Below are positions 5,437 to 61,099 of a DNA stretch of 64,000 bases, piece after piece (positions within the stretch are counted from its first letter, which is position 1; every line of letters starts with the position of its first letter). A program made the position numbers and the translations under genes. The notes below the pieces were generated by a model. The model saw only the letters and a program-made list of their open reading frames with translations. It was not told where the DNA came from and did no database searches. Source of the stretch: a virus (taxonomy: Duplodnaviria > Caudoviricetes); the IMG/VR virus record IMGVR_UViG_3300035501_000350, positions 32,001 through 96,000 of that record, one strand, 5' to 3'.

Positions 5437-6231
5437 ATGGGAGAAATCTATGAAAGTGGCCATTTTATGGCCGGAAACCCTAATGCATCATCAAGTGGTA
5501 GTGCAAATTCTATACAATCTCTTAAATCTACTTTTTATAGAGGTGCTAATTTAGGCACTATCGCTTCCTCTACAATTGATTCATTTATTACTGAACATGG
5601 TATAGCAGCTGGAACATTTGATAATTTATTTATAGGAGATTTCTTTACTGCTACGTATAGTAATAACACTACTATTTTTAGAGTGATGGATATAGATCCA
5701 TATTATGATATATCCGATAGCGGCATTGCTGGAACTCATCATATATTAATAGTACCAGATACAGAGCTAACAACCGTAAGCAATACCAATAATAAGAGTA
5801 GTGATGGGTATACTAATTCTTATGTGCATAAAACAGCAATACCAACTATAAATACTAAGTTAAAAGCTATATTCGGATCTCATTATTTATCTTATAAAGA
5901 GAAACTATGTACAAGTTCTATGAATAGTACTTTTGCATTAGTATCTGTAAATAGTGTATCGATGGATGAGGTAGAGATATTTGGAAAAGCGGTTAATCAG
6001 AATACCGACTATGGATTATTACGGTACCAATTACCGGCATTTATGTACAACCGCGATCTAATAAAATCATATAGCTATACTACTCATAATGGAACTATGT
6101 ATTGGACAAGAGGCCGGTATTCTAGTAACTTTTGTGTTGTTTCAGCTGGTACAGCTGATAATGGATATAGTTATTATAGCACCACTTCAACTTATGATAT
6201 TGGCGTTCGTCCACGTTTCTTATTGGGTTAA
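5437..6231 (+). CDS. DUF6273-like (C-type-lectin-fold-like) protein
   Basis: IGDFFT...FRVMDID...HHILIVPD...YWTR...GVRPRFLLG; paralogue at 11878-12627. Confidence 0.55.
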   Translation: MGEIYESGHFMAGNPNASSSGSANSIQSLKSTFYRGANLGTIASSTIDSFITEHGIAAGTFDNLFIGDFFTATYSNNTTIFRVMDIDPYYDISDSGIAGTHHILIVPDTELTTVSNTNNKSSDGYTNSYVHKTAIPTINTKLKAIFGSHYLSYKEKLCTSSMNSTFALVSVNSVSMDEVEIFGKAVNQNTDYGLLRYQLPAFMYNRDLIKSYSYTTHNGTMYWTRGRYSSNFCVVSAGTADNGYSYYSTTSTYDIGVRPRFLLG

Positions 6232-6259
6232 TAAAGCAAAAAATAATGTAAATGTAAAA

Positions 6260-6291
6260 AATATACTGGACGGGAACCCGTCCAGTATATT
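6260..6291. terminator. Hairpin between convergent genes
   Basis: AATATACTGGACGGG-AA-CCCGTCCAGTATATT. Confidence 0.7.
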
Positions 6292-6310
6292 CAAATGCAT
6301 TATGTGTTTA

Positions 6311-6733
6311 TTATTTCATTACTAGCACCGTAGTATCATAAACATTGCACTTACGTATTGGGGTAATTCCTAAAGACTCTGATATAGAAGTATCTTTATC
6401 ATAAGCATTAGCCCCATATTGGTACTTAAACTCTTTGTACCCTTCAACATGGCGAACAGTTAACGCATATAATTTATCAATAGTATTATTGAAATCAATA
6501 TTACTATTAATTGCTTCATGCGTTATCTTCCCATTGGCAGTAGCGATATCAATGCATGTACTATTACCAGCTTTGATGGTAAAGTGATACACGCTGTTAC
6601 CAGACTCAGAGATTCTTACATAAGCATACTCTATACCATGGTTACGTAGAAATCCGATAAGCCTCTGATGTTCGCTAGTTGGCTTATCGGATTTCTTATG
6701 CTTGTGATGATTAGTCTTCCTATCTTCCATCAT
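6311..6733 (-). CDS. Hypothetical protein (possible distant member of tandem family)
   Basis: ORF overlapping the upstream gene's stop; FLRNHGIEY resembles the family N-terminus. Confidence 0.6.
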   Translation of the reverse strand: MMEDRKTNHHKHKKSDKPTSEHQRLIGFLRNHGIEYAYVRISESGNSVYHFTIKAGNSTCIDIATANGKITHEAINSNIDFNNTIDKLYALTVRHVEGYKEFKYQYGANAYDKDTSISESLGITPIRKCNVYDTTVLVMK

Positions 6734-7691
6734 CAGCACTTCCTACCATTAATATAGTTCTAAGCCGATTAAGCTTATCCTTTCCCTTAATAAAACTGAG
6801 GTACAACCAATTAATGATATCGGTATTCACTCCAAATTCTTTAGAGAGTTTTTTAAATTCCTCATCCAATTGGCCTGGAGCATAATCTACATATTTTTCT
6901 TCAGACTCCGCTCCTGTATTGTTCTCCTCTTTAGAATTATCAAGCGTTTGTCTTGATACTTCTTCATTAAACTCAGTACTCTTATTAGAGGATTTGAAGC
7001 ATAAATCAGCCACGAATGAGGCAATATCGTTTGCCATACCGGTTTTCATCTTTTCAAGGTCGCTAATTTCAGCTTTAATCTTTGCAAGATCTCCATTAGT
7101 TTCAGTAAGCTCGTGTTCAAGATCATCTTCAGATCTGGAACTGCCGATGCTAGAAGTATCATTGGATCCATCTTGTTTGTCATACATTTGAGCTAAAGTG
7201 TGAAACAAGAAATCCCTTGCCAAGCTGGTCTTATTAGTTTTACGTTTGTCTATCTCTGCTTTGGACTTAGCAATTTTTTGCTTAATGGCATCTGCTGTGT
7301 CCTGAAGAGCTTCAACAGACGTACCGCCAGAGGAATTATCATATTCAGATTTCACAACCTCATGGGTTGATTCATCACACTTGTGGTCATCGGAGTATTT
7401 GGTGTATTTAAACCATCTTACTCTTACATATTTATCTGTCATGATCATCATATGCAGAAACTTCTCGATCGCAGAGTCTAGGGATTCATCCTTAATTACA
7501 TCAGCAAAGTAAAACTCATAATCATGAGTCTCACTAAAAGGATTCATTGCAAAATACATTACAATGTATCCGTATTTAGTAGCAACGCAGATGCTCTCCA
7601 TTGCTGGTTCGGATTCAGTTGCTGTATAATTAATGATGTAATGGTCAATCCTATTCTTCTTTAGAAAACCGAGTACATTTTTGTTTGTCAT
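6720..7691 (-). CDS. Hypothetical protein, tandem paralogue family
   Basis: GGAGG RBS; FLKKNRIDHY...VATKYGYIVMYF. Confidence 0.75.
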   Translation of the reverse strand: MTNKNVLGFLKKNRIDHYIINYTATESEPAMESICVATKYGYIVMYFAMNPFSETHDYEFYFADVIKDESLDSAIEKFLHMMIMTDKYVRVRWFKYTKYSDDHKCDESTHEVVKSEYDNSSGGTSVEALQDTADAIKQKIAKSKAEIDKRKTNKTSLARDFLFHTLAQMYDKQDGSNDTSSIGSSRSEDDLEHELTETNGDLAKIKAEISDLEKMKTGMANDIASFVADLCFKSSNKSTEFNEEVSRQTLDNSKEENNTGAESEEKYVDYAPGQLDEEFKKLSKEFGVNTDIINWLYLSFIKGKDKLNRLRTILMVGSADDGR

Positions 7692-7751
7692 TTCTATTAC
7701 CTCCATCAATATATTATTAACCAGGGCTCCGAAAAGCCCTGGTTAATTTTA

Positions 7752-8441
7752 TCAAATTGTTAAGGCCGTTGATGCTGAGTAATCTTTCGTATCGGCCTTA
7801 TCTACGGATAAAATTTTTTGCGTACCATTTAATGTAGCGTGATCATCATAATTGTAGGTACGCCCATTACTATTTGGAGTTTCATTAGCCCCTCCAAATG
7901 CTTTATAAAATTGATCTTTAGATACAGAGCCAGCTTCAGCATCTTTATGCATACTGGATTCTGAATGCACATTTTTGTACTTTTCAGAACTATCTTTTAT
8001 CGCCTGTTCAGCGGCCGCCTTTAACGTATTAATCTGTTCATCACTAAGCTCCTTGATCGGCGTATTATTAATATCGACCTGTTTGGGATCATCTTCTTTA
8101 GCAGTATCAGTATCCTTGTGCTTTTTAGCGTTAGGCTTAGGAGGATCGGCGACATCATACTTGCCAACGTACAAGTACCAACTATTGTCTTTGCTAAACT
8201 TTCCATACTCTCCATCGTATAATAATGCTGCCGATATATGCTTTTTAATATAATCATCTAGAGTGCGCCCGCCATGTGCAACTGCATAATTTAAATACTT
8301 TTTGTAACCATCTGGTAGAAATCGTAACATAACAACTCCATATTTGGTTTGCACATACATATTGTCAACGCCATTTTCAGATGTTGTAAAGTAATTTAAT
8401 TCATTTTCCTTAATAATTTCAAGTACGCCATCATAATTCAT
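7752..8441 (-). CDS. Hypothetical protein, tandem paralogue family
   Basis: GGAGG RBS; YVQTKYGVVMLRF. Confidence 0.75.
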   Translation of the reverse strand: MNYDGVLEIIKENELNYFTTSENGVDNMYVQTKYGVVMLRFLPDGYKKYLNYAVAHGGRTLDDYIKKHISAALLYDGEYGKFSKDNSWYLYVGKYDVADPPKPNAKKHKDTDTAKEDDPKQVDINNTPIKELSDEQINTLKAAAEQAIKDSSEKYKNVHSESSMHKDAEAGSVSKDQFYKAFGGANETPNSNGRTYNYDDHATLNGTQKILSVDKADTKDYSASTALTI

Positions 8442-8522
8442 TTTTATTTCCTCCATTAATATATTATTAACCAGGGCTCCGAAAAGCCCTGGTTAATTTG
8501 TCTAAGCGACTAGAATAAGTTA

Positions 8523-9221
8523 TTATTCGTCAATCTCGTGCCCAAATAAAATAGCTTCCATATTCTTTAATGGATTTTCCATTTTATTGGTAATGGGATT
8601 AAACCTAGCAAATTTATGGCAATTCTTTATATACCATTCTTGTGCATATTTTTTAGCCAATTCACGATCTTCAGCAGTGCCATATTCTGGAGTCTTATTA
8701 TCAACAGTATCTTCTGGATTAGCATCGTGATCTTCGATGGAATGTTCATCGGTGCTATCCTTAGAATGATCATTAGATCCATTGGTATCTAAGGCACTAA
8801 CGTACTCTTCTTTATAATTGTCACTATTAATAGGATGGGTTTGATTGTGACAATATCCAAGAGGATCGAACGGATTTCTAGTTCCAATTGGATTGTGCTC
8901 ATACTTTGGGGTATCGTTATACTTAACGATCTTCATATCATACAGATCATTGGATCCAAGCTTGGTTTTTACCAGGTGATATACAAAGTTATTGATAAAT
9001 GTGTCAAAGCGAACATCATCAAATGGCCTTACATTGTACAACTCAAGCGTTTCATGATCTGTACCTTCATCGGCGCTTTTAAAGTACAGCCTAATATGGC
9101 CATATTTAGTAGCTACAATCACATGCTGCTTTACCTGATCACGCTTATTGAATGTCATCACGGCATGGTCAATTTTCTCCCTTTCCAAATACGCAATCAT
9201 CTCAATGTTAGTCAGTCTCAT
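8523..9221 (-). CDS. Hypothetical protein, tandem paralogue family
   Basis: GGAGG RBS; YLEREKIDH...VATKYGHIRLYF. Confidence 0.75.
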   Translation of the reverse strand: MRLTNIEMIAYLEREKIDHAVMTFNKRDQVKQHVIVATKYGHIRLYFKSADEGTDHETLELYNVRPFDDVRFDTFINNFVYHLVKTKLGSNDLYDMKIVKYNDTPKYEHNPIGTRNPFDPLGYCHNQTHPINSDNYKEEYVSALDTNGSNDHSKDSTDEHSIEDHDANPEDTVDNKTPEYGTAEDRELAKKYAQEWYIKNCHKFARFNPITNKMENPLKNMEAILFGHEIDE

Positions 9222-9274
9222 TTTTTATTTACCTCCATTAATATATTATTAACAATAGCCTCGAAAGGCTATAG

Positions 9275-9730
9275 TTAATCCTTTTTGAAACCCTCAGGGT
9301 TATCCTTCATCGCCATCTTAATCTTATACCAGGCATCTTCAACCTGATCAAGATCAGGTTCCTTAGTTGGCGTATTGTTGATACTATCCTGATTTGTTTC
9401 ACAAATCACCTCTGTAGGCTTTTCTTCCTCTTCGCTATAGATAGCACGAGAAATGCTATAATAGTTAGGCGGATAGTTAAGAATAGTCATCTGCGATACC
9501 CTACCGTTAAGCTCGTCCATGTAGCTTAAATTTGAATGTATGGCATCTTTAAACTCTATGTCTCTAGGGTTGGTACTATCTTTAACCTTCTTATAGAAGA
9601 ACAATGTGGCTGAACCATCTTTGTTCCGCATATAAATCTCTGCATCTCCATTGTTACACATAACAGTGAAGTGCTCAATTTTGCGATTGTGCAGATACGC
9701 TACGGTATCATAGAAATTAAGTACGCTCAT
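9275..9730 (-). CDS. Hypothetical protein, tandem paralogue family
   Basis: GGAGG RBS; YLHNRKIEHFTV...YMRNKDGSATLFF. Confidence 0.7.
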   Translation of the reverse strand: MSVLNFYDTVAYLHNRKIEHFTVMCNNGDAEIYMRNKDGSATLFFYKKVKDSTNPRDIEFKDAIHSNLSYMDELNGRVSQMTILNYPPNYYSISRAIYSEEEEKPTEVICETNQDSINNTPTKEPDLDQVEDAWYKIKMAMKDNPEGFKKD

Positions 9731-10037
9731 TTTTAGTACCTCCAAATACTACTTGCTCTACGTTACAGATATACGGGGCGTCATCATTATAAACGGATGT
9801 TAGAATCTCATCAACCTTTTGTTTATACCCATGATCAGATATATACGTAACAGATAAAAACTCCAATCTGTTGTATGTGGTATTTGCATCAAATTTATAC
9901 TTGAAGTACAAATACCCACTATCGGTATTTTTTACATACACATCCTTACTTCCATCGGTGTAATTTACAGTAAAATTGTCGGTACAATTCAACTGTAATA
10001 GTTCTTTAATTCTGTAATAGTCAAACATCTCAATCAT
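9717..10037 (-). CDS. Hypothetical protein, tandem paralogue family
   Basis: GAGGAGG RBS; TDNFTVNY...YVKNTDSGYLYFKY. Confidence 0.7.
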   Translation of the reverse strand: MIEMFDYYRIKELLQLNCTDNFTVNYTDGSKDVYVKNTDSGYLYFKYKFDANTTYNRLEFLSVTYISDHGYKQKVDEILTSVYNDDAPYICNVEQVVFGGTKNERT

Positions 10038-10377
10038 CTTTAATTTCCTCCTCTGTAATTTTAGCATCTCTAGCACTAAATGCTGCAATACGCATGCTTA
10101 CAATTGATCTGTTATTGAAATCGGCTTCAAACATTCGATTCAATAGCTCATTAAGCATATCGTCGTAGTTGTATTCAGTGTCAAGTACATGCTCTACGCT
10201 ATCAAGTATTATTCTATAATAAATATCACCTACTTTGCTATAGCAAACTAGTAAGTACCCGCCATCATTTTTCTTTATGAATAATTCTACCGTATTTTTG
10301 TAATTAACCTCAAAATAATCTGTACGTGTTCTGTACAGTTCATCTTTAGTCGCATGATAATCTTGTAAATTAACCAT
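10030..10377 (-). CDS. Hypothetical protein, tandem paralogue family
   Basis: GGAGG RBS; TDYFEVNY...FIKKNDGGYLLVCY. Confidence 0.7.
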   Translation of the reverse strand: MVNLQDYHATKDELYRTRTDYFEVNYKNTVELFIKKNDGGYLLVCYSKVGDIYYRIILDSVEHVLDTEYNYDDMLNELLNRMFEADFNNRSIVSMRIAAFSARDAKITEEEIKDD

Positions 10378-10518
10378 TTTATTTACCTCCATTTGTTTTT
10401 AATCAAGTACATACTTTCTTGTACTCGTTATTATATTATGCAACTATTCCCAATTTTAATATATGCGTTTTTTGCTTAATCTGACATCAATATAATTAAA
10501 TAAATGGAGGATCAGCGT

Positions 10519-11685
10519 ATGAAAGATACTACCGCTATATTAGATACAGCTTACCCTGAAGTAGAGAAACAGATTAAAGCAAATCTATCTGGGTATAAGA
10601 AATACATTTCTAAATTTATCAATTCAAGATCAGCACTATTATACTCCAATATGCCGTCTAAGCAGATATATTTTACTAATGATGATGCAAAAGAATTCTT
10701 TGCTTCAATTAAATTAGATCAGAAGATTATTAAGACAGCCATACAGCATACTTATTACGCCGATGTAGCAAAGTTCAATCCAAGATATGCTAAAGATGAA
10801 TGTACAGTGGCAATGTTATGCATAGTGAGATACTTTAAGCTTCATAATATGTCTAAAGAGCTTGAGCTGGCATTAATCAATATGGCATTTAGTGGTAAGT
10901 ATTACCCGTCTATATGGTATGGTTCATTTAGATTTCCTGTAAATGAATATATAATGGAATATGTTGTAGAACATGTACTGTCTAATAAGTTTGATATTGT
11001 CCGTGAGGGTAATGTAATTGGAGCTGTTAAATCTATTGCTAAAACATGGAGTACAACGTACAATCAGAAATTCAAGGATTTCCATGATGATGATTGTGTT
11101 TATCTAATTCAGCAGCTTCATAATAGACTTAGATCATTTATGTCTAATATTGCTAATGTATATTTTGATTATAATGAAAGAAAAGACGCTTATCTAACAT
11201 ATGATTCTGATGATGTTGGGGATACTAATTATAGATTAGCAGATTCTGATTCATTTATGCTTAACCGTACTGTAGAGAATACTATGACTTACATTAACTC
11301 TCATGGCATAGATACTAGAATATGTAAGATGGCAACAAATGATCTAATTAAGATGGATGAGCTTAAGAGCATCATAGAGAATATCTTAATGAATTCCGAT
11401 AATCTGCCATTGATTAAAGAGTTTGTTACGTTAATGATTGTTACATACTATAATCAATCAAAAAAGAAAGATGTTAGAGACTTAGACTTTATATCTTTCT
11501 CTATTAAAGCAAAGCCTAATAATAAAGATAAATACATCACCAGACAGAAAGAGTTGTTAAACCAAATCCTTATTAATAATTCAGAGCAGTTCTCTAGAAG
11601 ACGTAATAGAGCTGCAACTGAATCTGCTTATTATAGATCTATTAATGCATACTTTGCGTTAATAATTCAGCAAGCAAATAAATAA
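10519..11685 (+). CDS. Hypothetical helical protein
   Basis: Long ORF, GGAGG RBS, promoter motif GACA-TCAATA-TA at 10483-10494. Confidence 0.75.
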   Translation: MKDTTAILDTAYPEVEKQIKANLSGYKKYISKFINSRSALLYSNMPSKQIYFTNDDAKEFFASIKLDQKIIKTAIQHTYYADVAKFNPRYAKDECTVAMLCIVRYFKLHNMSKELELALINMAFSGKYYPSIWYGSFRFPVNEYIMEYVVEHVLSNKFDIVREGNVIGAVKSIAKTWSTTYNQKFKDFHDDDCVYLIQQLHNRLRSFMSNIANVYFDYNERKDAYLTYDSDDVGDTNYRLADSDSFMLNRTVENTMTYINSHGIDTRICKMATNDLIKMDELKSIIENILMNSDNLPLIKEFVTLMIVTYYNQSKKKDVRDLDFISFSIKAKPNNKDKYITRQKELLNQILINNSEQFSRRRNRAATESAYYRSINAYFALIIQQANK

Positions 11686-11695
11686 AGCGGACGAC

Positions 11696-11848
11696 TTATC
11701 CGTATGGGGAAACCCATACGGATAAATCTAATGTGTAAAACTGCAATCGGAAATGTATTGGAGGTCTTAATGTCACATAATCGACACCATACAAAAGCAA
11801 TCCAAGTTAGGTGGGGAGAGCAAGAATTAAACTCACTCGCTTGGATTT
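11696..11848 (-). ncRNA. Candidate small RNA, dispersed member of the 40-kb array family
   Basis: Promoter TACAA-N7-AACA-N6-TA; 5' stem AATCCAAG/CTTGGATT; CATTAAGACCTCC tract; terminal CCGTATGG-N6-CCATACGG hairpin. Confidence 0.55.
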
Positions 11849-11877
11849 ACATTTATGTTACATATATTGTAAAATAT

Positions 11878-12627
11878 TTAACCTATAATAAATCTAGGAC
11901 GAATACAGTATTTAGTATCTGCATGCTGTGCAATATTGCTTACGCCATAAAATACACAGAAGAATCTTGATGAGCCGCAACAATCACGTTCATACCATTC
12001 TTCAAGTTTTCCTCTATCATTATGTAATGTTTCTATACCATGAAGCATCCTAAATCCACTTATTCTGCGGGTTAATAATCCACTGATGTGGTCATGATCC
12101 TTAAAACCAAATATCTCTAGCTGGTTCATTAATATAGATTTAACAGATACTAATTCAGTACCATCTTTATTATCTGTAGATACTATCTCATTGTAAGATA
12201 ACAGATGTTTTCCAAATATAGCTTCTAGTTTCTTATCTATAGAAGGAATAACCTCATTAAACATATAAGAACCCTTATAACCTGTAAGGTTAATCGCTTC
12301 TGGATTCATCTTATCATATTCTAGTGGATTATCGGGTACTATTAACAAATGATGAGTATCAGCAATACCGCTTTCTTCTATACCCCAATATGGATCTACA
12401 TCCATAATTCTAAACTTGATGGTTGTATTACCGTAATCAGCAGTAAAAGTATCACCAACGTATAGATCATTAAATGCTCCATTAGATACATCGTGCAGCA
12501 GCATAAAGTTATCTATGTTTTTTATGCTTACAGAGCCTAGATCATTTTCTCTATAAGCACGTCTCTTAGCAGCAATATAGTCATCAACGTCTACTAGTAC
12601 TTTATTGCTCTTTCCTTTAGTTCCCAT
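11878..12627 (-). CDS. DUF6273-like protein, paralogue of 5437-6231
   Basis: VGDTFTADYGNTTIKFRIMDVDPYW...HHLLIVPD...CIRPRFIIG. Confidence 0.55.
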   Translation of the reverse strand: MGTKGKSNKVLVDVDDYIAAKRRAYRENDLGSVSIKNIDNFMLLHDVSNGAFNDLYVGDTFTADYGNTTIKFRIMDVDPYWGIEESGIADTHHLLIVPDNPLEYDKMNPEAINLTGYKGSYMFNEVIPSIDKKLEAIFGKHLLSYNEIVSTDNKDGTELVSVKSILMNQLEIFGFKDHDHISGLLTRRISGFRMLHGIETLHNDRGKLEEWYERDCCGSSRFFCVFYGVSNIAQHADTKYCIRPRFIIG

Positions 12628-12652
12628 AGTGTATCAATTCCCTTACAAAAAA

Positions 12653-13861
12653 TTATGTGGTTTTTCTACTATCACTTGTAAGTGTTACTGTGCTAGTAGA
12701 GCTAGAAGTTTTACTACTGGTGGTTGTTGTAGATGAAGCTTTAACGATAGTTCCATCTGCAGCAGAAATATATGTAGAATCTACGAATCCGTAAGTAGTA
12801 CCATTGATACAGATATAATACCATACATGATTAGAACTATCATAAACAGCGTCACAAACCTGTACTGTAGTACCATTAGTAATTGCAGGGATAGAAATAA
12901 GACGGCTATATTTAGTTCCTGCCCATGTACGTACGTTCAAAGAGTCTGCAGTAACAACACCAATAAACTTAGATGTTTTATTAAGATTAGAACCATTACC
13001 AACAGTAATTGTTGCAGTAGTATTAGTAACACTACTAGCAGGAATAAATCCATAGATCTTACTATTGATCAATACATAATACCAGTTAGCACCAGAGCTA
13101 TCAGCAATAGTATCGCATACACCAACAGAAGTTCCCTTAGTAATCTTGCTAATAGACTTTAAAGTACTATTAGTGGCTCCAGCCCAGCTTCTGGGGATTA
13201 CATCCTGATTAACACTACCAGTCCACTGAACTGTCTTAGAAATGCCTGTAGACGTAGTAGTAGTGGTCTTAGATGTCGTAGTACTAGAGCTGGTGGTAGT
13301 TGTTGTAGTGGAAGTTGATCCACTAGGATTAGTATCACCATCAAATGCGGGATAGCCATAGCCATAGATAGTAGAATTAGTTCTACGGTAAGTGCATCTA
13401 GACACTTGATCATTACTATTACCCTCAATAGTATATACGTAAGTATTATCATATTTAACAACCATGCCTGTATGGTAAAGATTGCTAGGGGCCGAACCAA
13501 AGAAAATCTGAGCTCCAAGCTTAGGAGTCTCACCAACACGACCTTTAGCTTTATAATAGCTATAACTATAGATGCACCCGGCGCCAGCACTCTTTAACGG
13601 CTGGCACGTAAGCTCAAGAGTTTTATCTAATCCAAATGCAGTTAACATACACCAATCATAGAAAAGATCGCACCATGCGTATCCATTCTTATTACCATTG
13701 TAAAATGTAGGATACTTGGAATAGATATCTCTAGCATACTTGGTGTAGTTGTTAGAGCCAGAGTTAGCAGTATTACTATCTAAGTTAGCATTACTTGCCT
13801 TCTCATGATAACCAACTTGTGATTCAGCTGTAGCAATTAAATCACTAGCATATGCTTTCAT
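12653..13861 (-). CDS. CHAP-domain cell-wall hydrolase (endolysin-like) with two SH3b domains
   Basis: AWCDLF (catalytic Cys), HTGMV (His), TIEGNS; Thr-rich linker; LNVRTWAG...WYYI...YGFV SH3b repeats. Confidence 0.85.
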   Translation of the reverse strand: MKAYASDLIATAESQVGYHEKASNANLDSNTANSGSNNYTKYARDIYSKYPTFYNGNKNGYAWCDLFYDWCMLTAFGLDKTLELTCQPLKSAGAGCIYSYSYYKAKGRVGETPKLGAQIFFGSAPSNLYHTGMVVKYDNTYVYTIEGNSNDQVSRCTYRRTNSTIYGYGYPAFDGDTNPSGSTSTTTTTTSSSTTTSKTTTTTSTGISKTVQWTGSVNQDVIPRSWAGATNSTLKSISKITKGTSVGVCDTIADSSGANWYYVLINSKIYGFIPASSVTNTTATITVGNGSNLNKTSKFIGVVTADSLNVRTWAGTKYSRLISIPAITNGTTVQVCDAVYDSSNHVWYYICINGTTYGFVDSTYISAADGTIVKASSTTTTSSKTSSSTSTVTLTSDSRKTT

Positions 13862-13916
13862 AATAATCGCTCCTTTCTAATTATTACTAAGATGTAATAA
13901 AAAGAAAGAAAAACAC

Positions 13917-14192
13917 TTACTCATCTTTAATATATTTACGCTTTAATTTCTTACTTGGGTTTTGGCGTTTATTCTTTCCTACCGCTATTCCGCTTCTTCC
14001 AGATTGGTCTCTAGATGTATGAGATGCTAATACATCGTCATCCAATTCAAATGTAGGAATCTGTTGCATCATAGACCTTAATTTTGCAGGAGTCCACGCT
14101 ATTCGTTTTCCTGTATTTTGTGATTTAGCATCTGAATATCTCTCTAGATTGGTCAAGAATATTTCTAAATCACTTGCTCTAATTATCTTCAT
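13917..14192 (-). CDS. Hypothetical basic protein
   Basis: 91-aa ORF with GAGGG RBS. Confidence 0.55.
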   Translation of the reverse strand: MKIIRASDLEIFLTNLERYSDAKSQNTGKRIAWTPAKLRSMMQQIPTFELDDDVLASHTSRDQSGRSGIAVGKNKRQNPSKKLKRKYIKDE

Positions 14193-14285
14193 TAGTTATG
14201 TCCCTCTCTATAAATGTACCAAAAAATATAGATACGGCGAATATAGTCGTAGATGGTTTTACCCACCTACGACTATATTATTGAT

Positions 14286-16646
14286 TTACTCTTTACGAAT
14301 TAGTTCTGCCTTGATAATTCCATCTTTACAAAGCTTTACTCCTGCACTAATAGATGAACCTACAGGGATATCGTTATCGTTAATCTCTATTACTTCATCT
14401 ACTCTTGTTACTTTGATAACAGAATTACCACTGCATGTGAATACATTCTTAATGTAATCTCCCTTTGTAAGTTTAATTACATTACTCCCCGATTTGTTTC
14501 TACCGCTAGATGGCAATACAGATGGAAGGATCTTATTGAATTTACCCTTAGCGGTTACAACAATAAGCTCTTTAGTATCTGTAGTGATAACAGAAATTCC
14601 ATCTATTGGATCTCTAGTCTTCATAGCCTGATTACCAAGAGTTGCTCTCTTAAGATAAGGAATCTCATTAATACTAAACCTAAGAGCTTTAGATTTGGTA
14701 TAAACTACAATATCAGATTTATGATTAGCAATAAGAATATCACAAATCTGATCTCCCTTATTGAGCTTAGAGTAAATGATACCGCTTGGAGTAGCATTGA
14801 TTACATCGTCTAGATCCATCTTCTTGATAAGACCATTCTTAGTCACTGTGACAATATAATACTTAGATTGCTTATTTGCCAGCATCTCAATTATAGGCAC
14901 ATACATTACCGATATGATATTGCTAGTGGCTTTCTTAATAAGCATTCTAATATCAATGCCAGGGCTATTCTTGTCCGTAAACGAAATCTTATTGACTGGT
15001 AGTCTAAATACTTTACCCTGCTGGTCAAACAGAAGAAGATCTTTAGCATTATCAGCAATAGTAATACATTTAGGTTGATCTCCACCTACGACTTTAATGG
15101 GATCGTTAATAGCCATCTTCTTAATGAAGTTCTGCTCTGTAAGAACAACCTTGAATTCACCCTCTGGAATATCAGAAGCTTCACTTTCAGAAATGATAAC
15201 ACTCTTTCTAGGTTTACCATATCTATCTTTGATATCAATAAGCTCAGCCTCAATCTCTTGGTCTATCATCTCTTCATGAGTGACCATGTTGATATATCCA
15301 GCAACCTCAGCGTTAAGTCTAGCCTGTTCTTCTTTATACTTATTGAGATGCCCCTTAGACAGACGACCAATCTCTGTATGAAGAACAAATTTAGCCTGTA
15401 AATCTGTAATCTTAAGCTTCTTCATCAACCATTCTATCAGATAATTCTCATCCATAGAATTCTGATTTCTAATCATATGGATAATATTCTCCACATCACC
15501 AGACTCCAGAATCTTAATATAAGTATCAATCTGATGCAATCTAGTTTCTGCTTTCTGAAGCTTAATGTTATAGAGTCTAAACTTACACTCTCTACGGAAC
15601 TCTAAGAAGTATGCGATATAAGCCTTATAACTCATACGTCTAATATTAGTTCCATCAATTACTTCCATATTGACTCTCTTTAAATCTTGCAAAGAAGTAT
15701 TCCTATACAAAGTTTGCTTTACATAGTTTGCATCAGAACCCTTCTTTAGGATCAAATGGATATCCAACTCGCTGTCAGTAGAATGATCTTGAATATCAGC
15801 AATCTGTACAAGCTTATTATTCTTGATAAGATTGTCAATACTCTCCATGATAGAGTTCGCTGTTACCATGTCAGGAACAGATCTAATTCTAAGAATCTGA
15901 GTTCCATTATTAAGAGTATCAGTCTCAATGATCCCTCTTTCTGTGAAATAACCAAATCCCATATTGGAAAGTTTTTTCCAATCTGCATTTACTATCTCAC
16001 ATTTCTGGCATGGGTCAGGAATCAATACTACTTTAGCATTGGGATTATGAAGTACTGCTATAGTGGCATCAATAACATCATTAAGACTATGCGGAGGAAC
16101 CTCAATTCTTCTACCAATAGCAATACCAAATACGCCATTAACCAACAGCAGAGGAACTTTAACAGGTAAACACTCTGGCTCTACTGTATGGTTATCAAAT
16201 GTCTTCTGCCAGTCTACAACATTCTTAGACACAGCCATATCTCCAAATAAACAATCAACAGAGAATTTACTAAGATAGGATTCTGTATATCGCATTGCTG
16301 CCTGAGGGCCACCCTGAATAGACCCAGAGTTTGAATCATAATTAATCAATGGTACTTTGATTTCCCATTCATTAGTCATGGGTTTCATTGATTCATAGAC
16401 AGATGCATCACCATGTCCATGATAGCTTGCGATTACTGCACCTACAGTATTAGCACTCTTACGTTTAGTTGCCGAGGAAACACATCCAATGTCATTCCAC
16501 ATTGCATACAGAACTCTTCTTTGTACTGGCTTTAAACCATCCCGAATATCAGGAACAAATCTATTATATAATACATAGATACTATATCTTGCCATATTAC
16601 TCATGTATTGATCATGAGCGTCTACTTTGACTATATTGTCTTTCAT
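14286..16646 (-). CDS. gyrA: Type IIA topoisomerase subunit A (GyrA/ParC-like)
   Basis: PDIRDGLKPVQRR, HGHGDASVY, AAMRYTE catalytic Tyr, C-terminal beta-pinwheel repeats. Confidence 0.95.
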   Translation of the reverse strand: MKDNIVKVDAHDQYMSNMARYSIYVLYNRFVPDIRDGLKPVQRRVLYAMWNDIGCVSSATKRKSANTVGAVIASYHGHGDASVYESMKPMTNEWEIKVPLINYDSNSGSIQGGPQAAMRYTESYLSKFSVDCLFGDMAVSKNVVDWQKTFDNHTVEPECLPVKVPLLLVNGVFGIAIGRRIEVPPHSLNDVIDATIAVLHNPNAKVVLIPDPCQKCEIVNADWKKLSNMGFGYFTERGIIETDTLNNGTQILRIRSVPDMVTANSIMESIDNLIKNNKLVQIADIQDHSTDSELDIHLILKKGSDANYVKQTLYRNTSLQDLKRVNMEVIDGTNIRRMSYKAYIAYFLEFRRECKFRLYNIKLQKAETRLHQIDTYIKILESGDVENIIHMIRNQNSMDENYLIEWLMKKLKITDLQAKFVLHTEIGRLSKGHLNKYKEEQARLNAEVAGYINMVTHEEMIDQEIEAELIDIKDRYGKPRKSVIISESEASDIPEGEFKVVLTEQNFIKKMAINDPIKVVGGDQPKCITIADNAKDLLLFDQQGKVFRLPVNKISFTDKNSPGIDIRMLIKKATSNIISVMYVPIIEMLANKQSKYYIVTVTKNGLIKKMDLDDVINATPSGIIYSKLNKGDQICDILIANHKSDIVVYTKSKALRFSINEIPYLKRATLGNQAMKTRDPIDGISVITTDTKELIVVTAKGKFNKILPSVLPSSGRNKSGSNVIKLTKGDYIKNVFTCSGNSVIKVTRVDEVIEINDNDIPVGSSISAGVKLCKDGIIKAELIRKE

Positions 16647-16785
16647 ATATTATAATACCTCCTTTGACTTCATTATTATAATATACATTCAAAATTAAAA
16701 TTGCACAAGAACAACTCGGTAGATCACTCTACCGAGCTATTCTTATGTTAATCGAAGGAGACTAACAGTTAGCTAGCATAATTAA

Positions 16786-17196
16786 TTACTCAGGCTGATC
16801 CTCAGCGGTGGTAAGAGCGTTCTCAATAACCATCTTAGTGATAGCACCAAACTTGCCATTATGCTCAGTATTGTAAGTAACAATAGTGGGCTGCTTGAAA
16901 GATGCTTTGACGGTATCGCAGAGCTTAGCGAAGAGGACTACAGTAAATACATTAGTCTCGTCGTTATAGTTTCTAATGTAACCAACAGTCACAAGGCGTG
17001 TGTCATCGCTAGCGACATTAGGATCAATAGAATGCCTATAAACGCTAATGGGGAAACTAATCTTATTAAAGGGAGTACTCTTCAGGACATCGAGAATCGC
17101 ATCTTGAATTTCCTCTTCCATCTCATCGTTGATAAAAAGAGGTACCTCAAGAACATTGGGTTTGCTTCTTCTCTTGTTGTCATAATTGTTCTTCAT
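16786..17196 (-). CDS. Hypothetical protein
   Basis: GGAGG RBS; promoter motif at 17232-17243. Confidence 0.7.
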   Translation of the reverse strand: MKNNYDNKRRSKPNVLEVPLFINDEMEEEIQDAILDVLKSTPFNKISFPISVYRHSIDPNVASDDTRLVTVGYIRNYNDETNVFTVVLFAKLCDTVKASFKQPTIVTYNTEHNGKFGAITKMVIENALTTAEDQPE

Positions 17197-17326
17197 TTCA
17201 CAGACCTCCATGGAGTGTAGATTTTATTTAGTACTTTAATGTACCATCTAATTAAATTATATGTATGACATTGTGTAAAATTTGACATTATAATAAATAA
17301 ATTTATCAATGCTAGGAGGTTACACA

Positions 17327-17836
17327 ATGGAACAATATAAGAGTAAATATAATAGAATATTGACAGACGAAGATCAAAACTCTGTTAACCGTAATATGGA
17401 ATATCATTTAACAGTAGAGCAGTATTACGATCTTCTTCATCACTCTCATAATGCATCTGATATTGTTGGCTCATCAACAAGCGGCGGTTCATCTGATGGA
17501 AGCAGCGCAGATGTTACTGAATTAACAGAATCTGTATCTCAGCTTAAGGATTCTGTAGCAGAGCTTAAAGCTTTAATAGAGCAGAACTATGCTAATGATA
17601 GTGAACATGCTGCTGCTTCTAATACATCTAATGATGAGATTAAGCAGAATATTGTTGAACTCACAGCGGCAGTAGCTGCAAATACAGAGAGTATTAATAA
17701 TATAGTTGCTGCTGTAAATAATAACACTACAGCTGTTACTGCTCAAGGACAGGCTATTGATGAACTTAAGGTTCAGGTTGATGCTTTGAATGTCTATGTA
17801 GATCAGGATATTCAGTACGGAGAAAAAGCAGAATAA
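17327..17836 (+). CDS. Coiled-coil virion fibre-like protein
   Basis: N-terminal module shared with the next gene; heptad repeats; promoter motif at 17284-17295. Confidence 0.65.
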   Translation: MEQYKSKYNRILTDEDQNSVNRNMEYHLTVEQYYDLLHHSHNASDIVGSSTSGGSSDGSSADVTELTESVSQLKDSVAELKALIEQNYANDSEHAAASNTSNDEIKQNIVELTAAVAANTESINNIVAAVNNNTTAVTAQGQAIDELKVQVDALNVYVDQDIQYGEKAE

Positions 17837-17922
17837 TAAAATACAATGCAAGCAGGTAACTCCTGCTTGCATTATTTATTTACATTCATATAAATAAATC
17901 CATAAGGGAGGAAGAATTTTTT

Positions 17923-19647
17923 ATGTCATCTTATTTTAGTAAGTATAAGCGTATCATTACTGATACCGATACTCAGACTGTAAATCCTACAATGAAGTTC
18001 AATATGACTGTAGAGCAGTATCAGGATCTCATGCACCATACGCATAGAGCTTCTGATATTCTTGCTGACGATGGAACTTCTGTTGGTGCTAGTATTCAAG
18101 AGATTACTAATTCTGTAGAGGATCTTAAGACTGCTATTGATGCTAATACAGAAGCAGATGAAACTAATGTAGATGCCATCAATGAGGCTCTTGATAATCT
18201 TAAGAATACTCTTAGCGAGCATAGCACTGAGTCCGATGAGCGTATTACTGCTGCATCTGATGCTATTGATGAGCTTAAGAAGCTCATTAGCTATAATTCC
18301 TCTGCGGATGAAACTAATGCTGCTGCTATGGAGGAAGCTCTGGCTGCCATTAAGGATCTGATCCAGGCTAATACTGATAATGATGCAGCTAATCTTGAAG
18401 CTACTACTAATTCCATTGCTACTCTTACAGCTCTTATTACTGAGAATAGTAATGCTGATGAGGAACAGGCTACATCTGTTGCTGCATCTCTGACAGAGCT
18501 TAATGGCCTTATTCAGGCTAATGCAAATAAGGCTACAGAGATCAATGGAGCTATTGAAGTTCTTGGCGTTAAGGTTCAGAAGAATGCTGATGATATTGCT
18601 GATACCGAAAAGGTAATTGTTGATATTACCGAGGAGAATGCTGTTCTTAAGTCAACCATCGCTAAGATTAAGGCTCAGCTTAGACAGATTATGGATAACA
18701 TTACAGAACCTAAGACTACTCTTCCTGCAGCAGATGCAAATGGAGTTATTACTCTTGATTGGGATTATGCTGCTCCTCTCACTGTTGCTGAGGGAGAGAC
18801 TGTTACTCTGGATCTGAATGGTTATAATCTTGATTGTGATACAGGATGTACTGTTATTAATAAGGGTAATCTTACCATTGTTGGTGAAGGTATTGTTTCT
18901 TGTGGAGCTAGTAACAGTGCTGCTATTGCTAATTTCCCTGGAGCTACATGTACTCTTGAGGGCGGCACCTTCCAGTCTTCTGCTTGGTATACCATTAAGA
19001 ACTGTGGTATTATGGTTATTGACGGTGATGTTACTATTACTACTAATAGTGATTCTAATGTCTCTAGCCTGATTGATAATGGTTGGTACGGTAGCACCGA
19101 TAAGGTTGCTGGTGAGTCTCTTCCTGCTCAGGCTAATGCTGCTTATCTTACCATTGAGAGTGGAGCATTTAACTGCACTGGTGGTCCTAAGAGTTGCTCT
19201 GTTGTTAAGAATGATGACTATGGCACTCTTGTTATTAATGGTGGTACATTTGATAGTACTGCTAATACTGGTACATCCGCTGCAGCAACCATTATGAACT
19301 GGAATATCTGTACTATTAACGACGGTACATTCATTGGTCAGTATCCTATCTCTAATGGTTACTGTGATGCCAATGCTGATATTGGTGAGTGCACTATCAA
19401 TGGCGGTACATTCATTGGTACCATGTCTACGTTTGGTCAGAATAGTGGTTCTACCGATGGATATGGTACTCTTACTATCAATGGTGGTACATTCGATGCT
19501 CCTATCGTTGGTAATAAGGCTCCTTATGCCATCGTTATCTGTGGTGGCACGTTCCCTGCTGATGTTGCAAGCATTGTTGATACTGAGAAGTATGATGTTA
19601 CTGCTAACTCCGACGGAACGTACACTGTTACCGCTAAGGTTGCTTAA
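17923..19647 (+). CDS. Fibre/spike-like protein: coiled coil plus C-terminal beta-helix-like domain
   Basis: HHTHRASDI, long coiled coil, VTLDLNGY and repeated (I/L)NGGTF motifs. Confidence 0.7.
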   Translation: MSSYFSKYKRIITDTDTQTVNPTMKFNMTVEQYQDLMHHTHRASDILADDGTSVGASIQEITNSVEDLKTAIDANTEADETNVDAINEALDNLKNTLSEHSTESDERITAASDAIDELKKLISYNSSADETNAAAMEEALAAIKDLIQANTDNDAANLEATTNSIATLTALITENSNADEEQATSVAASLTELNGLIQANANKATEINGAIEVLGVKVQKNADDIADTEKVIVDITEENAVLKSTIAKIKAQLRQIMDNITEPKTTLPAADANGVITLDWDYAAPLTVAEGETVTLDLNGYNLDCDTGCTVINKGNLTIVGEGIVSCGASNSAAIANFPGATCTLEGGTFQSSAWYTIKNCGIMVIDGDVTITTNSDSNVSSLIDNGWYGSTDKVAGESLPAQANAAYLTIESGAFNCTGGPKSCSVVKNDDYGTLVINGGTFDSTANTGTSAAATIMNWNICTINDGTFIGQYPISNGYCDANADIGECTINGGTFIGTMSTFGQNSGSTDGYGTLTINGGTFDAPIVGNKAPYAIVICGGTFPADVASIVDTEKYDVTANSDGTYTVTAKVA

Positions 19648-19698
19648 TTCAGTCAAAAAAATATACCCAGGGGAGCAATCCCCTGGGTATATCATTCC

Positions 19699-40013: not shown

Positions 40014-40119
40014 GACAGGTGCGTCCCTGTCTCCTTTCTGACCGGACACTGCGTATAATTTTGTTGCTAAAGCTTTTCACAGACGTTTCCCGTATGGTTA
40101 ATTCCATACGGGGAATGTT
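40014..40119 (+). ncRNA. Array RNA unit 1 (predicted)
   Basis: 5' stem GACAGG/CCTGTC, CTCCTTTCT tract, terminal hairpin. Confidence 0.55.
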
Positions 40120-40154
40120 CTTGTATAAAAATACAATACGATATACATATTAGT

Positions 40155-40268
40155 GGTGGGTTTGGTCGCCCATCTCTTTCCTGGTTTGAGCCTTTGAACT
40201 CCTATACCAGAGGCTCAGCATTTAGGTTTCCTTAGAGAATCCCCGTATGGTTAATTCCATACGGGGAT
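40155..40268 (+). ncRNA. Array RNA unit 2 (predicted)
   Basis: 5' stem GGTGGG/CCCATC, second stem TGAGCCTTTG/CAGAGGCTCA, terminal hairpin. Confidence 0.55.
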
Positions 40269-40307
40269 ACCTAGTGTAAAAATATACAATATGCTATACA
40301 TATTAGT

Positions 40308-40411
40308 GACGGGTCTTCCCGTGTGCCCATCCCTTCCGTACGGGTTTGATGCAGCCCGATTTTCAACTTATTGGCTTGGGGATTCCCCGTATGGTTAATT
40401 CCATACGGGGA
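40308..40411 (+). ncRNA. Array RNA unit 3 (predicted)
   Basis: 5' stem ACGGG/CCCGT, CCCTTCC tract, stem CGGGTT/AGCCCG, terminal hairpin. Confidence 0.55.
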
Positions 40412-40455
40412 TACCTCTATTGTGTAAAAATATACAACACGGTATACATATTAGT

Positions 40456-40590
40456 GATGGGATTGCTCAACTACCCATCTTTATGAATGGCCACTAGTAT
40501 ACTTCGGCGGTGGCACTAGTGGTTGTTTCATAGTATAGTGTCCTTAATGGGATATTCCCCGTATGGTTAATTCCATACGGGGGATGTTCC
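40456..40590 (+). ncRNA. Array RNA unit 4 (predicted)
   Basis: 5' stem GATGGG/CCCATC, stem CCACTAGT/ACTAGTGG, terminal hairpin. Confidence 0.55.
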
Positions 40591-40624
40591 GCGTAAGAAA
40601 ATACAACACATCATACATATTAGT

Positions 40625-40765
40625 GATGGATATAGTTACACGTGTTCATCATTCTTTCCAGTGTTGAGTTAGTAAGCCCTTGCCTGAAAACTCAGCGTTT
40701 TTACTCTTGTAGACATGTTAGACAAGGATATTCCCCGTATGGTTAATTCCATACGGGGGATGTTC
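40625..40765 (+). ncRNA. Array RNA unit 5 (predicted)
   Basis: 5' stem GATGGATAT/GTGTTCATC, TTCTTTCC tract, stem GTTGAGTT/AACTCAGC, terminal hairpin. Confidence 0.55.
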
Positions 40766-61052: not shown

Positions 61053-61099
61053 CTACAATTACCCCAGGTGGATTTAACCACCTGGGGATTGTGTTTCGC

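What the first reader, a model, noticed from the sequence alone, without database searches (positions are those of the whole stretch)
11696..11871. Dispersed sixth member of the RNA family, 28 kb from the array
Seen on the minus strand: TACAA-TATATGT-AACA-TAAATG-TA, with the same TACAA-N7-NACA-N6-TR spacing as the array. It is followed by a 5' stem AATCCAAG/CTTGGATT, a small stem, the tract CATTAAGACCTCCA, and TTATCCGTATGG-N6-CCATACGGATAA, which shares the CCGTATGG/CCATACGG arms. The tract can pair at 14 of 15 positions (one G-U) with the recombinase RBS and start (TGGAGGTTCTAATGT, about 43499-43513) and over 11 contiguous positions with the RBS of 40839. It is also exactly antisense to a GGAGG-N5-ATG that opens a hydrophobic 66-aa ORF (11770-11970), which resembles a type I toxin-antitoxin layout. 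These targets are inference, since SD-containing matches arise easily by chance.
Basis: partly seen in the sequence, partly recalled or inferred. Interest (0 to 1): 0.7.

Follow-up and report, generated by a model that had tools for sequence, protein, structure and literature searches.

The report
Probable late small RNA gene, phage
A 190-base gap between two facing genes of a giant gut phage most likely holds a small non-coding RNA gene with its own phage late promoter, but it resembles the phage's small-RNA array only in design, not by descent, and no transcript has been seen yet.

Summary
The two links to the array at 40 kb are weak. The shared 8-bp hairpin arms are no rarer than sharing among other unrelated terminator hairpins in this genome, and an orthologous hairpin closes the 393-aa gene in relatives. 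The array's 36-nt promoter block is not matched (rank about 130 of 240,000).

The NACA-N6-TA part of the motif is a good match to this phage's own AR9-type late promoter. It scores 13.8 bits and ranks 21 of 239,768 positions. All sites scoring 12 bits or more are intergenic, and about 0.006 such sites are expected in this gap by chance. It predicts +1 at 11848 on the minus strand. No ORF follows. An 8-bp stem starts at +2, and the hairpin lies about 125 nt downstream.

Relatives carry late-promoter matches at the same position (L081 18.2, L021 14.4, L001 13.4 bits; combined p 2e-4). Many also have 5' stems and unpaired CCUCC-like motifs. The body aligns significantly only with the L001 unit.

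The plus-strand 66-aa ORF has no homologues, non-coding codon usage and no promoter, and it is frame-broken in L001.

Verdict: a probable (about 55%) stand-alone late sRNA of about 160 nt that shares a bidirectional terminator. It may act against ribosome-binding sites. It is unproven: the one RNA library available did not cover the region.

The scan had already described the array and the late-promoter type on this same genome.

The parts
11848..11871 (-). Putative AR9-type late promoter. Upstream element TACAAT at 11871-11866, AACA at 11859-11856 (-11 to -8), T(-1) at 11849, predicted +1 = A at 11848.
   Evidence: PWM built from 27 gene-proximal sites without this one gives 13.8 bits, rank 21 of 239,768. 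All sites of 12 bits or more are intergenic. Chance expectation is 0.42 for all intergenic DNA and 0.006 for this gap. It is 11/12 identical to the promoter of the phage's tRNA gene. Consensus from PMC7598289.
11799..11847 (-). 5'-terminal stem-loop. An 8-bp stem (RNA +2 to +9 pairs with +43 to +50) encloses a 7-bp inner hairpin and an unpaired C-rich loop, CUCUCCCCACC.
   Evidence: z -2.5 on the minus strand; P unpaired 0.76-0.90 for CUCCC/UCCCC.
11759..11773 (-). Anti-RBS tract ACAUUAAGACCUCCA (CAU-N5-CCUCC; CCUCC at 11764-11760). It is the complement of the plus-strand GGAGG-N5-ATG.
   Evidence: P unpaired 0.48. Conserved as CAU-N5-CCUUC in L001 and CAU-N7-CCUCC in L087/88.
11696..11725 (.). 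Bidirectional terminator hairpin with a 13-bp stem and 4-nt loop, starting 10 nt after the stop of the 393-aa gene. It is the probable 3' end of the small RNA. Its 8-bp core CCGTATGG/CCATACGG is shared with the array hairpins.
   Evidence: A hairpin of 9 bp or more lies at the same position in 40 of 63 sequences examined, the window included. L004 has CCCCGTAGG there.
11674..11695 (-). Tail after the hairpin on the minus strand (GUCGUCCG, then CUUUAUUUAUUU). The U-rich part is the complement of the last codons and stop of the 393-aa gene.
   Evidence: terminator-like site on the minus strand.
11770..11970 (+). 66-aa ORF behind GGAGG-N5-ATG (88 aa from 11704). Judged not to be a gene.
   Evidence: No homologue among 1.84 billion representatives except itself and a repeat artefact. 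Its codon score of -0.035 is below 99% of real-gene windows. No plus-strand promoter (best 2.4 bits). It overlaps the 249-aa gene by 93 nt. Indels break the frame in L001.
10504..11685 (+). Flanking gene of 393 aa (phrog_2921, unknown function), conserved across the 200-310 kb (mostly 200-290 kb) relatives. Its 3' hairpin is the one above.
   Evidence: Late promoter with +1 at 10494.
11878..12627 (-). Flanking convergent gene of 249 aa, one of 7 paralogues in the genome. Its mRNA would run through the small-RNA region to the same hairpin.

Best explanation
The 192-nt gap between the convergent 393-aa (+) and 249-aa (-) genes holds a stand-alone small non-coding RNA gene on the minus strand.

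Proposed mechanism:
- The phage's own multisubunit RNA polymerase starts at an AR9-type late promoter (AACA-N6-T-A, +1 = A at 11848). This step is inferred.
- The RNA opens with a stem-loop at +2. This would protect the 5' end.
- It exposes a C-rich loop and a CAU-N5-CCUCC tract.
- It ends about 160 nt downstream at the 13-bp hairpin 11725-11696 plus a U-rich tail. That hairpin also terminates the 393-aa gene coming from the other side.

The most likely action is base pairing of the CCUCC/CAU tract with Shine-Dalgarno and start regions of target mRNAs, which would block translation late in infection. Which mRNAs are targeted is unknown.

The unit resembles the array units in design: late promoter, stem at +1, C/U-rich single strand and closing hairpin. 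It is not a detectable homologue of them. Its only detectable homologue is the syntenic unit of the closest relative (L001).
For: Promoter:
- The phage has a clear NACA-N6-TA motif 13-45 nt before start codons (40 found against 15 expected).
- A PWM trained without the candidate scores it 13.8 bits, rank 21 of 239,768. That is above 74% of leave-one-out training scores.
- There are no hits of 12 bits or more in coding DNA.
- The phage encodes a split beta'-like RNAP subunit (PF00623).
- The AR9 late consensus is A(-11)ACA-(6N)-U-A/G(+1) (PMC7598289).
- The tRNA-Met(CAT) gene of this genome has TACATAAATGTA 14 nt upstream, 11/12 identical to the candidate.

No coding use:
- No SD-led ORF follows on the minus strand.
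- The gap is 192 nt, against a median of about 45 nt for the 20 convergent gaps.

Comparative evidence:
- Minus-strand late-promoter matches in the same gap are L081 18.2, L021 14.4 and L001 13.4 bits. Four of 33 gaps have p<0.01, and the Fisher combined p is 1.9e-4 without the window.
- Five-prime stems of 7 bp or more at +1 to +3 occur in 5 of 7 syntenic units, against 12% at random positions and 2 of 27 mRNA promoters.
- Unpaired CCUCC/CCUUC-type pentamers occur in all nine predicted RNAs.
- The body aligns to the L001 unit (score 36, null 18-21, p<0.002) with 1-, 2- and 3-nt indels that break the plus-strand frame.
Against: - No transcript has been seen. The one RNA library that holds this phage had no contig over 10670-12070, which is uninformative.
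- Without the terminal hairpin the body folds no better than shuffles (z -0.8).
- The 5' stem folds slightly better on the plus strand.
- GC is only 38% against an intergenic mean of 32%.
- Promoter scores in L003, L004, L048 and L087 are weak (6-9 bits).
- The motif set for the anti-SD pentamers was chosen after looking.
- Closer relatives (60-65% identity) have short gaps with only the hairpin.
- Target prediction is no better than for control antisense RNAs.
Confidence: 0.55

Rival explanations
1. There is nothing more than a bidirectional terminator and a long 3' untranslated region. The hairpin ends the 393-aa gene and the endolysin/249-aa operon. The 150 nt between them is lineage-specific filler left by gene insertion, and the promoter-like motif is a chance match.
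For: - A hairpin sits at the same place in 40 of 63 sequences examined, the window included, whatever lies downstream.
- Synteny breaks right after it.
- The filler has no similarity to most relatives.
- The body is not unusually structured.
- About 0.4 chance promoter matches are expected across the intergenic DNA.
- Shared stem 8-mers are common among hairpins.
Against: - The promoter match has p about 0.003-0.006 for this gap.
- Independent strong matches occur in the same gap of L001, L021 and L081.
- There is significant similarity to the L001 unit.
- The gap is four times the usual convergent gap.
- A stem starts exactly at the predicted +1.
Confidence: 0.27
2. The promoter is real, but the RNA acts only in cis. 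Convergent late transcription into the shared hairpin would form a duplex with the 3' end, or with read-through, of the 393-aa mRNA. This would set its 3' end or stability, or insulate the lysis/adhesin operon from antisense read-through. No trans targets would be involved.
For: - The unit is always tied to the 3' end of the 393-aa gene, not to the downstream gene, in the window, L001, L003, L004, L021 and L081.
- The plus-strand side of the hairpin lacks a U-tract in many relatives, so read-through is likely.
- Trans targets are not better than chance.
Against: - Conserved exposed CCUCC-like motifs and the CAU spacing are not needed for a pure cis role.
- Many relatives manage with the hairpin alone.
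Confidence: 0.1
3. The coding feature is on the plus strand: a small protein (66 aa, possibly a type I-like toxin) is translated from GGAGG-N5-ATG at 11770, and the minus-strand RNA is its antitoxin.
For: - A strong SD with 5-nt spacing and an open frame of 66 codons in AT-rich DNA.
- An SD-like site plus ATG is also present in L001 (GAAGG-N5-ATG) and L087/88 (GGAGG-N8-ATG).
Against: - No homologue in 1.84 billion representatives.
- Codon score typical of non-coding frames.
- No plus-strand promoter, and the ORF lies behind a terminator hairpin.
- It overlaps the convergent gene by 93 nt.
- The frames differ in relatives: the ORFs are 19 aa in L001 and 9 aa in L087/88, with frame-breaking indels.
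- It is not clearly hydrophobic.
Confidence: 0.05

Closest known systems
Late transcription units of Bacillus jumbo phage AR9 (non-virion RNA polymerase; promoter A(-11)ACA-(6N)-U-A/G(+1); PMC7598289, PMC9209446)
   Same: The same short bipartite motif and spacing, with +1 on the A/G. The phage encodes a split beta'-like RNAP subunit. The motif sits 13-45 nt before many genes of this genome.
   Different: AR9 recognition needs uracil in the template DNA, and whether this phage has such DNA is unknown. Position -11 is free here (T/A/G/C). An extra upstream TA(T/C)AAY element is seen at about -23. The unit drives a non-coding RNA rather than an mRNA. Nothing has been tested biochemically.
The tandem small-RNA array of the same phage (window 39876-40762)
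   Same: A late-type promoter, a stem starting at +1 to +3, C/U-rich single-stranded stretches, and a closing hairpin with the CCGTATGG/CCATACGG core.
   Different: - No body similarity.
- The array's conserved 36-nt promoter block is not matched.
- +1 is A rather than G.
- The hairpin loop is 4 nt (UUUC) rather than the invariant 6-nt UUAAUU, and the outer stem differs.
- The hairpin doubles as the terminator of a conserved protein gene.
- The unit is syntenic in relatives that lack an array at the corresponding place.
C-rich anti-Shine-Dalgarno sRNAs of Firmicutes (RsaE/RoxS; PMC6158497, PMC8216469, PMC5419742)
   Same: Unpaired C-rich/CCUCC motifs between stem-loops and a terminator hairpin. 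The proposed action is occlusion of ribosome-binding sites.
   Different: No sequence or Rfam match. It is phage-encoded and would be transcribed by a phage polymerase. The targets and any chaperone are unknown. This is a functional analogy only.
Small RNAs predicted in virulent phages (e.g. phiKZ dRNA-seq, PMC8244752; ONT-cappable-seq of Pseudomonas phages, PMC10914365)
   Same: A short non-coding unit in a lytic (jumbo) phage, expected to be expressed late.
   Different: Those were found from transcript data. Here there is only sequence and comparative evidence. No homology.

Membership tests
Small-RNA array family of this phage (40 kb) | Conserved 36-nt promoter block (GTGTAAAAATATACAAYAY..ATACATATTAGTG) | tested here: not met
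   PWM from the array gives members 30-48 bits (leave-one-out 10-43) and the candidate -2.2 bits, rank about 130 of 239,764. Only TACAAT and ACAT are shared.
Small-RNA array family of this phage (40 kb) | Near-invariant closing hairpin CCCCGTATGG-TTAATT-CCATACGGGG | tested here: inconclusive
   The 8-bp core is identical, but the loop length, loop sequence and outer stem differ. Stem 8-9-mers are shared by about 7 unrelated hairpin pairs in the genome.
Small-RNA array family of this phage (40 kb) | Match to a covariance model of the five units beyond the hairpin | tested here: not met
   R1 gives members 86-114 bits and the candidate 19.9 bits, of which the hairpin alone gives 16.4. The unrelated hairpin at 61062 scores 20.2.
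Small-RNA array family of this phage (40 kb) | General design: late-type promoter, stem at the 5' end, no ORF, closing hairpin 75-125 nt downstream | tested here: met
AR9-type late transcription unit | NACA at -11 to -8, six bases, then T(-1) and A/G(+1) | tested here: met
   AACA-TAAATG-T-A, 13.8 bits on the genome's own PWM. Consensus from PMC7598289.
AR9-type late transcription unit | Phage-encoded multisubunit RNA polymerase | tested here: inconclusive
   One split beta'-like gene was found (50408-51910, PF00623, E 7e-10). The other subunits were not searched for, and only 120 kb of a roughly 230-260 kb genome is held.
AR9-type late transcription unit | Transcript 5' end at the predicted +1 | not testable with these tools
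   The only RNA run found is kept as contigs and does not cover the region.
Type I toxin-antitoxin | A small, usually hydrophobic toxin ORF with its own promoter | tested here: not met
   No plus-strand promoter, non-coding codon usage, no homologues, and the frame is not conserved in L001 or L087.
Type I toxin-antitoxin | Antisense RNA covering the toxin's ribosome-binding site | tested here: inconclusive
   The geometry is present by construction, but transcription of either strand is unproven.
Intrinsic bidirectional terminator | A stable hairpin directly after the stops of convergent genes, conserved in position | tested here: met
   13-bp stem, 10 nt after the plus-gene stop. A counterpart is present in 40 of 63 sequences examined, the window included. 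The U-rich tail on the minus side starts 8-10 nt after the stem, and the plus side lacks one.
Rfam families | Score at or above the gathering threshold | tested here: not met
   No match at gathering thresholds. Only chance-level hits with E between 0.35 and 4.6.

The most novel reading that the evidence does not exclude
Tubulin-encoding gut jumbo phages with their own RNA polymerase may carry a fast-evolving but positionally conserved class of late small RNAs. Each would have a 5' stem, an exposed anti-ribosome-binding-site seed (CAU-N5-7-CCUCC) and a terminator shared with a conserved gene. Together with the tandem array these would form a battery that shuts off translation of chosen mRNAs late in infection. 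In this phage the dispersed RNA would silence the tyrosine recombinase (14 of 15 pairing across its SD and start), which other notes link to a possible adhesin-cassette switch.
Probability: 0.15. Interest if true: 0.7.

Novelty: new member of a known kind. Interest (0 to 1): 0.42.

Why it matters
Small RNAs of virulent phages are known from only a handful of transcriptome studies. None has been tied to the AR9-type late promoters of jumbo phages that carry their own RNA polymerase.

If this unit is transcribed, it and its syntenic counterparts give a sequence rule for finding such genes in uncultured jumbo phages: late promoter, stem at +1, no ORF, closing hairpin. They also give a small set of natural variants in which to test whether an exposed anti-Shine-Dalgarno seed is the working part.

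The hairpin that suggested a 'sixth array member' is an ordinary, positionally conserved terminator, so shared hairpin arms should not be used to count members of the array family.

Tried and rejected
- RNA evidence: one metatranscriptome run (X1, contigs) held 7% of the words. Laid on 6000-20000, it covered 6330-10408 and 14529-16655 but nothing between 10670 and 12070. This is no evidence either way.
- Close DNA relatives: the 'phages' collection gave no useful match for the region or the array.
- Exact-pattern scans of IMG/VR for both hairpins gave nothing.
- Single-protein scans of IMG/VR failed. An alignment query worked.
- The pattern TTGTATGGT..CATWAAKACCTYC found three IMG/VR stretches. 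All are coding DNA of unrelated phages with no 393-aa homologue, so they are chance matches.
- Loci L006-L008 are identical to the window, so they give no variation.
- The array has no counterpart next to the homologous flanking genes in five relatives of 60-65% identity.
- blastn and tblastx of the gap against all relatives' loci gave nothing significant. Only a Smith-Waterman test against L001 did.
- P0126, the only other hit of the plus-strand ORF, is a tandem-repeat artefact.
- RNAduplex target ranking: the recombinase is not among the top 12, and 78% of control antisense RNAs find a target that is as good or better.
- Rfam gave no match. ARAGORN found no tRNA in the window.
The Logan/ENA contigs are not held for whole-record searches.
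The closest relatives (P0002, P0006, P0010, P0018 and others at 72-76% identity) could therefore not be fetched, and no covariation analysis of the unit was possible.

Full report
**Context.** The window is bases 32001-96000 of a single 119,917-bp virus contig with 35.6% G+C. The flanking 393-aa protein (10504-11685, phrog_2921, unknown function) has hundreds of relatives on contigs of roughly 200-310 kb, mostly 200-290 kb. These contigs also carry tubulin and gyrase genes, so this is a fragment of a gut jumbo phage. The finding lies in the 192-nt gap between that gene and the convergent 249-aa gene (11878-12627, minus strand). The 249-aa gene is one of seven paralogues in the genome.

**Observation.**
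- The hairpin is more exactly a 13-bp stem with a 4-nt loop at 11696-11725, starting 10 nt after the stop of the 393-aa gene.
- The stated pairings were checked by hand: 13 Watson-Crick pairs, one G-U and one mismatch over 15 positions with the recombinase leader, and 11 contiguous pairs with the 40839 leader.
- The recombinase's real start is probably its second ATG (43503). Only that one has a Shine-Dalgarno sequence.

**The link to the array is weak.**
- CCGTATGG-N6-CCATACGG does occur only six times in the whole genome.
- When I catalogued all perfect hairpins (about 55, nearly all intergenic), 8-9-nt identity between stems of otherwise unrelated terminators turned out to be common: CCCAGGTGG, CCCAGATGG, CTCTGTGG, CCCAGGTG and ATATACCC are each shared. 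An 8-mer shared with one other hairpin family is therefore not exceptional.
- The hairpin also has positional counterparts. In 40 of 63 sequences examined, the window included, a perfect stem of 9 bp or more follows the stop of the 393-aa homologue within a few tens of bases, whatever gene comes next. This holds for nearly all relatives above 50% identity.
- L004/L005 have TTCCCCGTAGGA-TTTC-TCCTACGGGGAA there. This resembles both the window's hairpin and the array's.
- The hairpin is therefore first of all the terminator of the 393-aa gene.
- A PWM of the array's 36-nt promoter block scores the candidate -2.2 bits, against 30-48 for members. About 130 places in the genome score as well or better.
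- The body shows no similarity to any array unit (p 0.07-0.9).
- A covariance model of the five units gives the candidate 19.9 bits, of which the hairpin alone gives 16.4. An unrelated hairpin at 61062 scores 20.2, and members score 86-114.

**The promoter matches the phage's own late type.** The published consensus is A(-11)ACA-(6N)-U-A/G(+1) (PMC7598289).
- In this genome NACA-N6-TA lies 13-45 nt upstream of many start codons: 40 in upstream windows against 15 expected.
- A PWM from 27 such sites, built without the candidate or the array, puts the candidate (AACA-TAAATG-T-A, +1 = A at 11848, minus strand) at 13.8 bits, rank 21 of 239,768 positions.
- Every site of 12 bits or more is intergenic, although 88% of the genome is coding. 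The three other untrained sites at that level are a site just before the 393-aa gene, the promoter segment at 5306 noted by others, and a site at the contig edge that probably precedes a gene beyond the record.
- The candidate beats 74% of leave-one-out training scores.
- A first-order Markov model of the intergenic DNA gives 0.42 such hits for all intergenic sequence and 0.006 for this gap.
- The phage encodes a split beta'-like RNA polymerase subunit (50408-51910, PF00623).
- The genome's tRNA-Met(CAT) gene (outside the window) is preceded at 14 nt by TACATAAATGTA, 11 of 12 identical to the candidate. It is closed by a hairpin with the same TTAATT loop as the array. Late-type promoters thus do drive RNA genes here.
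- Among all late-promoter matches of 9 bits or more outside coding DNA, most are followed by a Shine-Dalgarno-led ORF. Of those without one, only the array units, this candidate and four weaker sites (-10707, -5271, 40531 on the array's minus strand, and 43567) also have a closing hairpin.

**What lies downstream of the predicted start.**
- No ORF with a start codon and ribosome-binding site lies on the minus strand.
- An 8-bp stem begins at +2. Such stems are present at 5% of random positions for 8 bp or more, and at 2 of 27 mRNA promoters for 7 bp or more.
- The stem's loop holds an unpaired CUCUCCCCACC.
- A largely unstructured middle contains CAU-N5-CCUCC.
- The hairpin lies about 125 nt downstream and is followed, after 8-10 nt, by a U-rich tail.
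- Without the hairpin the body is not more stable than shuffles (z -0.8), and the two strands cannot be told apart by folding energy.
- The gap is about four times the usual convergent gap: median about 45 nt, with only two of 20 longer.

**Comparative evidence.** The gap sequence has no BLAST-level similarity to relatives, and synteny breaks after the hairpin.
- The same gap in the closest relatives is also long (110-178 nt) and carries a minus-strand late-promoter match: L081 18.2 bits, L001 13.4, L003 9.3, L004 7.3. More distant relatives show L021 14.4, L089/90 12.3 and L048 7.7.
- With per-gap shuffles, 4 of 33 distinct convergent gaps reach p<0.01 against 0.33 expected. Fisher's combined p without the window is 1.9e-4.
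- Five of seven syntenic units start with a stem of 7 bp or more, although one (L009) is low-complexity AT only.
- All nine predicted RNAs carry a CCUCC/CCUUC/CUCCC-type pentamer in a predicted unpaired stretch. That motif set was chosen after looking.
- A Smith-Waterman test aligns the window's body with the L001 unit over about 60 nt, including the seed: score 36, null 18-21, p<0.002.
- The alignment has 1-, 2- and 3-nt indels just after the plus-strand ATG. CAU-N5-CCUCC becomes CAU-N5-CCUUC in L001, and L087/88 have CAU-N7-CCUCC opposite a 9-codon ORF.
- Relatives at 60-65% identity mostly have short gaps with the hairpin only, so the unit is not universal.

**The plus-strand ORF.**
- It has no homologue among 1.84 billion representatives apart from itself and a tandem-repeat artefact.
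- Its codon-usage score is lower than 99% of real-gene windows and typical of stop-free wrong frames.
- There is no plus-strand promoter between the terminator and the ORF (best 2.4 bits).
- It overlaps the convergent gene by 93 nt.
- Its frame and length are not kept in relatives: 19 aa in L001, 9 aa in L087/88.
- The type I toxin-antitoxin reading is therefore unlikely.

**Targets.**
- Only four GGAGG-N5-ATG sites exist in the genome. The recombinase leader matches the plus strand of the tract at 13 of 15 positions. With eight positions fixed by definition this is p about 0.03 per comparison.
- A duplex-energy ranking of all leaders does not single the recombinase out, and 78% of control antisense RNAs find a non-self target that is as good or better.

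**Verdict.** The most likely reading (about 55%) is a stand-alone, late-transcribed small RNA of about 160 nt that shares the bidirectional terminator of the 393-aa gene and may act through an exposed anti-ribosome-binding-site seed.
- What is shown: the sequence features, the promoter-model score and its specificity, the recurrence in relatives, and the lack of coding signal.
- What is inferred: transcription itself, the 3' end and the mode of action.
- The main rival (about 27%) is a plain terminator plus 3' untranslated filler with a chance promoter match.
- 'Sixth member of the array family' holds only as a likeness of design.
- No transcript evidence could be obtained.

Noticed in passing
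outside the window: genome 26608-26685 (-), i.e. window -5392 to -5315; locus L109:609-686: A tRNA-Met(CAT) gene with a late-type motif TACATAAATGTA 14 nt upstream. About 45 nt downstream is a closing hairpin TCCCAGATGG-TTAATT-CCATCTGGGA, whose loop and upper stem equal those of the array hairpins. RNA genes of this phage seem to share a promoter type and a hairpin type.
   Followed up: partly
window 43556-43639: The recombinase late promoter (TACATTAGTGTA, +1 at 43556 on the minus strand) is nearly palindromic. Its reverse reading (TACACTAATGTA, +1 at 43567 on the plus strand, 10.5 bits) points at a hairpin at 43614-43639 with no ORF between. This may be a divergent tiny RNA of about 70 nt.
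   Followed up: no
window 43499-43515 (-): The recombinase ORF as listed starts at 43515 without a ribosome-binding site. The second ATG (43503) has GGAGG-N5-ATG and is probably the real start.
   Followed up: partly
window 10494-10519: A late promoter with +1 at 10494 (14.0 bits) lies 10 nt before the listed start of the 393-aa ORF and 25 nt before the start used by gene callers (388 aa). The shorter form is probably right.
   Followed up: no
whole genome, e.g. window -7888, -5454, -3535, 43614, 61062, 40089-40758: Many terminator hairpins belong to one loose type, CCC-NNN-TGG / loop / CCA-NNN-GGG (CCCAGATGG, CCCAGGTGG, CCCGTATGG), often with a TTAATT-like 6-nt loop. In relatives L096/L098 the terminator of the 393-aa gene and a second hairpin in the same gap also share CCCTCTAG. 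Hairpins seem to evolve in concert within a genome.
   Followed up: partly
window 50408-51910 (+): A 500-aa protein with an RNA polymerase Rpb1 domain 2 (PF00623, E 7e-10). This is a split beta'-like subunit of a phage multisubunit RNA polymerase.
   Followed up: no
genome 21393-38228 and window 11878-12627: Seven paralogues (39-55% identity) of the 249-aa protein, all ending in RPRF(L/I)(L/I)G. The copy next to the finding sits alone behind the endolysin gene, away from the cassette region described in earlier notes.
   Followed up: partly
window 6330-10408 and 14529-16655: Contigs of an animal-gut metatranscriptome (run X1) match these stretches at 95-100% identity, some with many differences. 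This suggests a related strain is present in that RNA library.
   Followed up: no
L094, L095, L096, L098 (gaps of 220-317 nt after the 393-aa homologue): These relatives have two or three hairpins and late-promoter-like sites in the same gap. They may hold two small RNA units in tandem.
   Followed up: no
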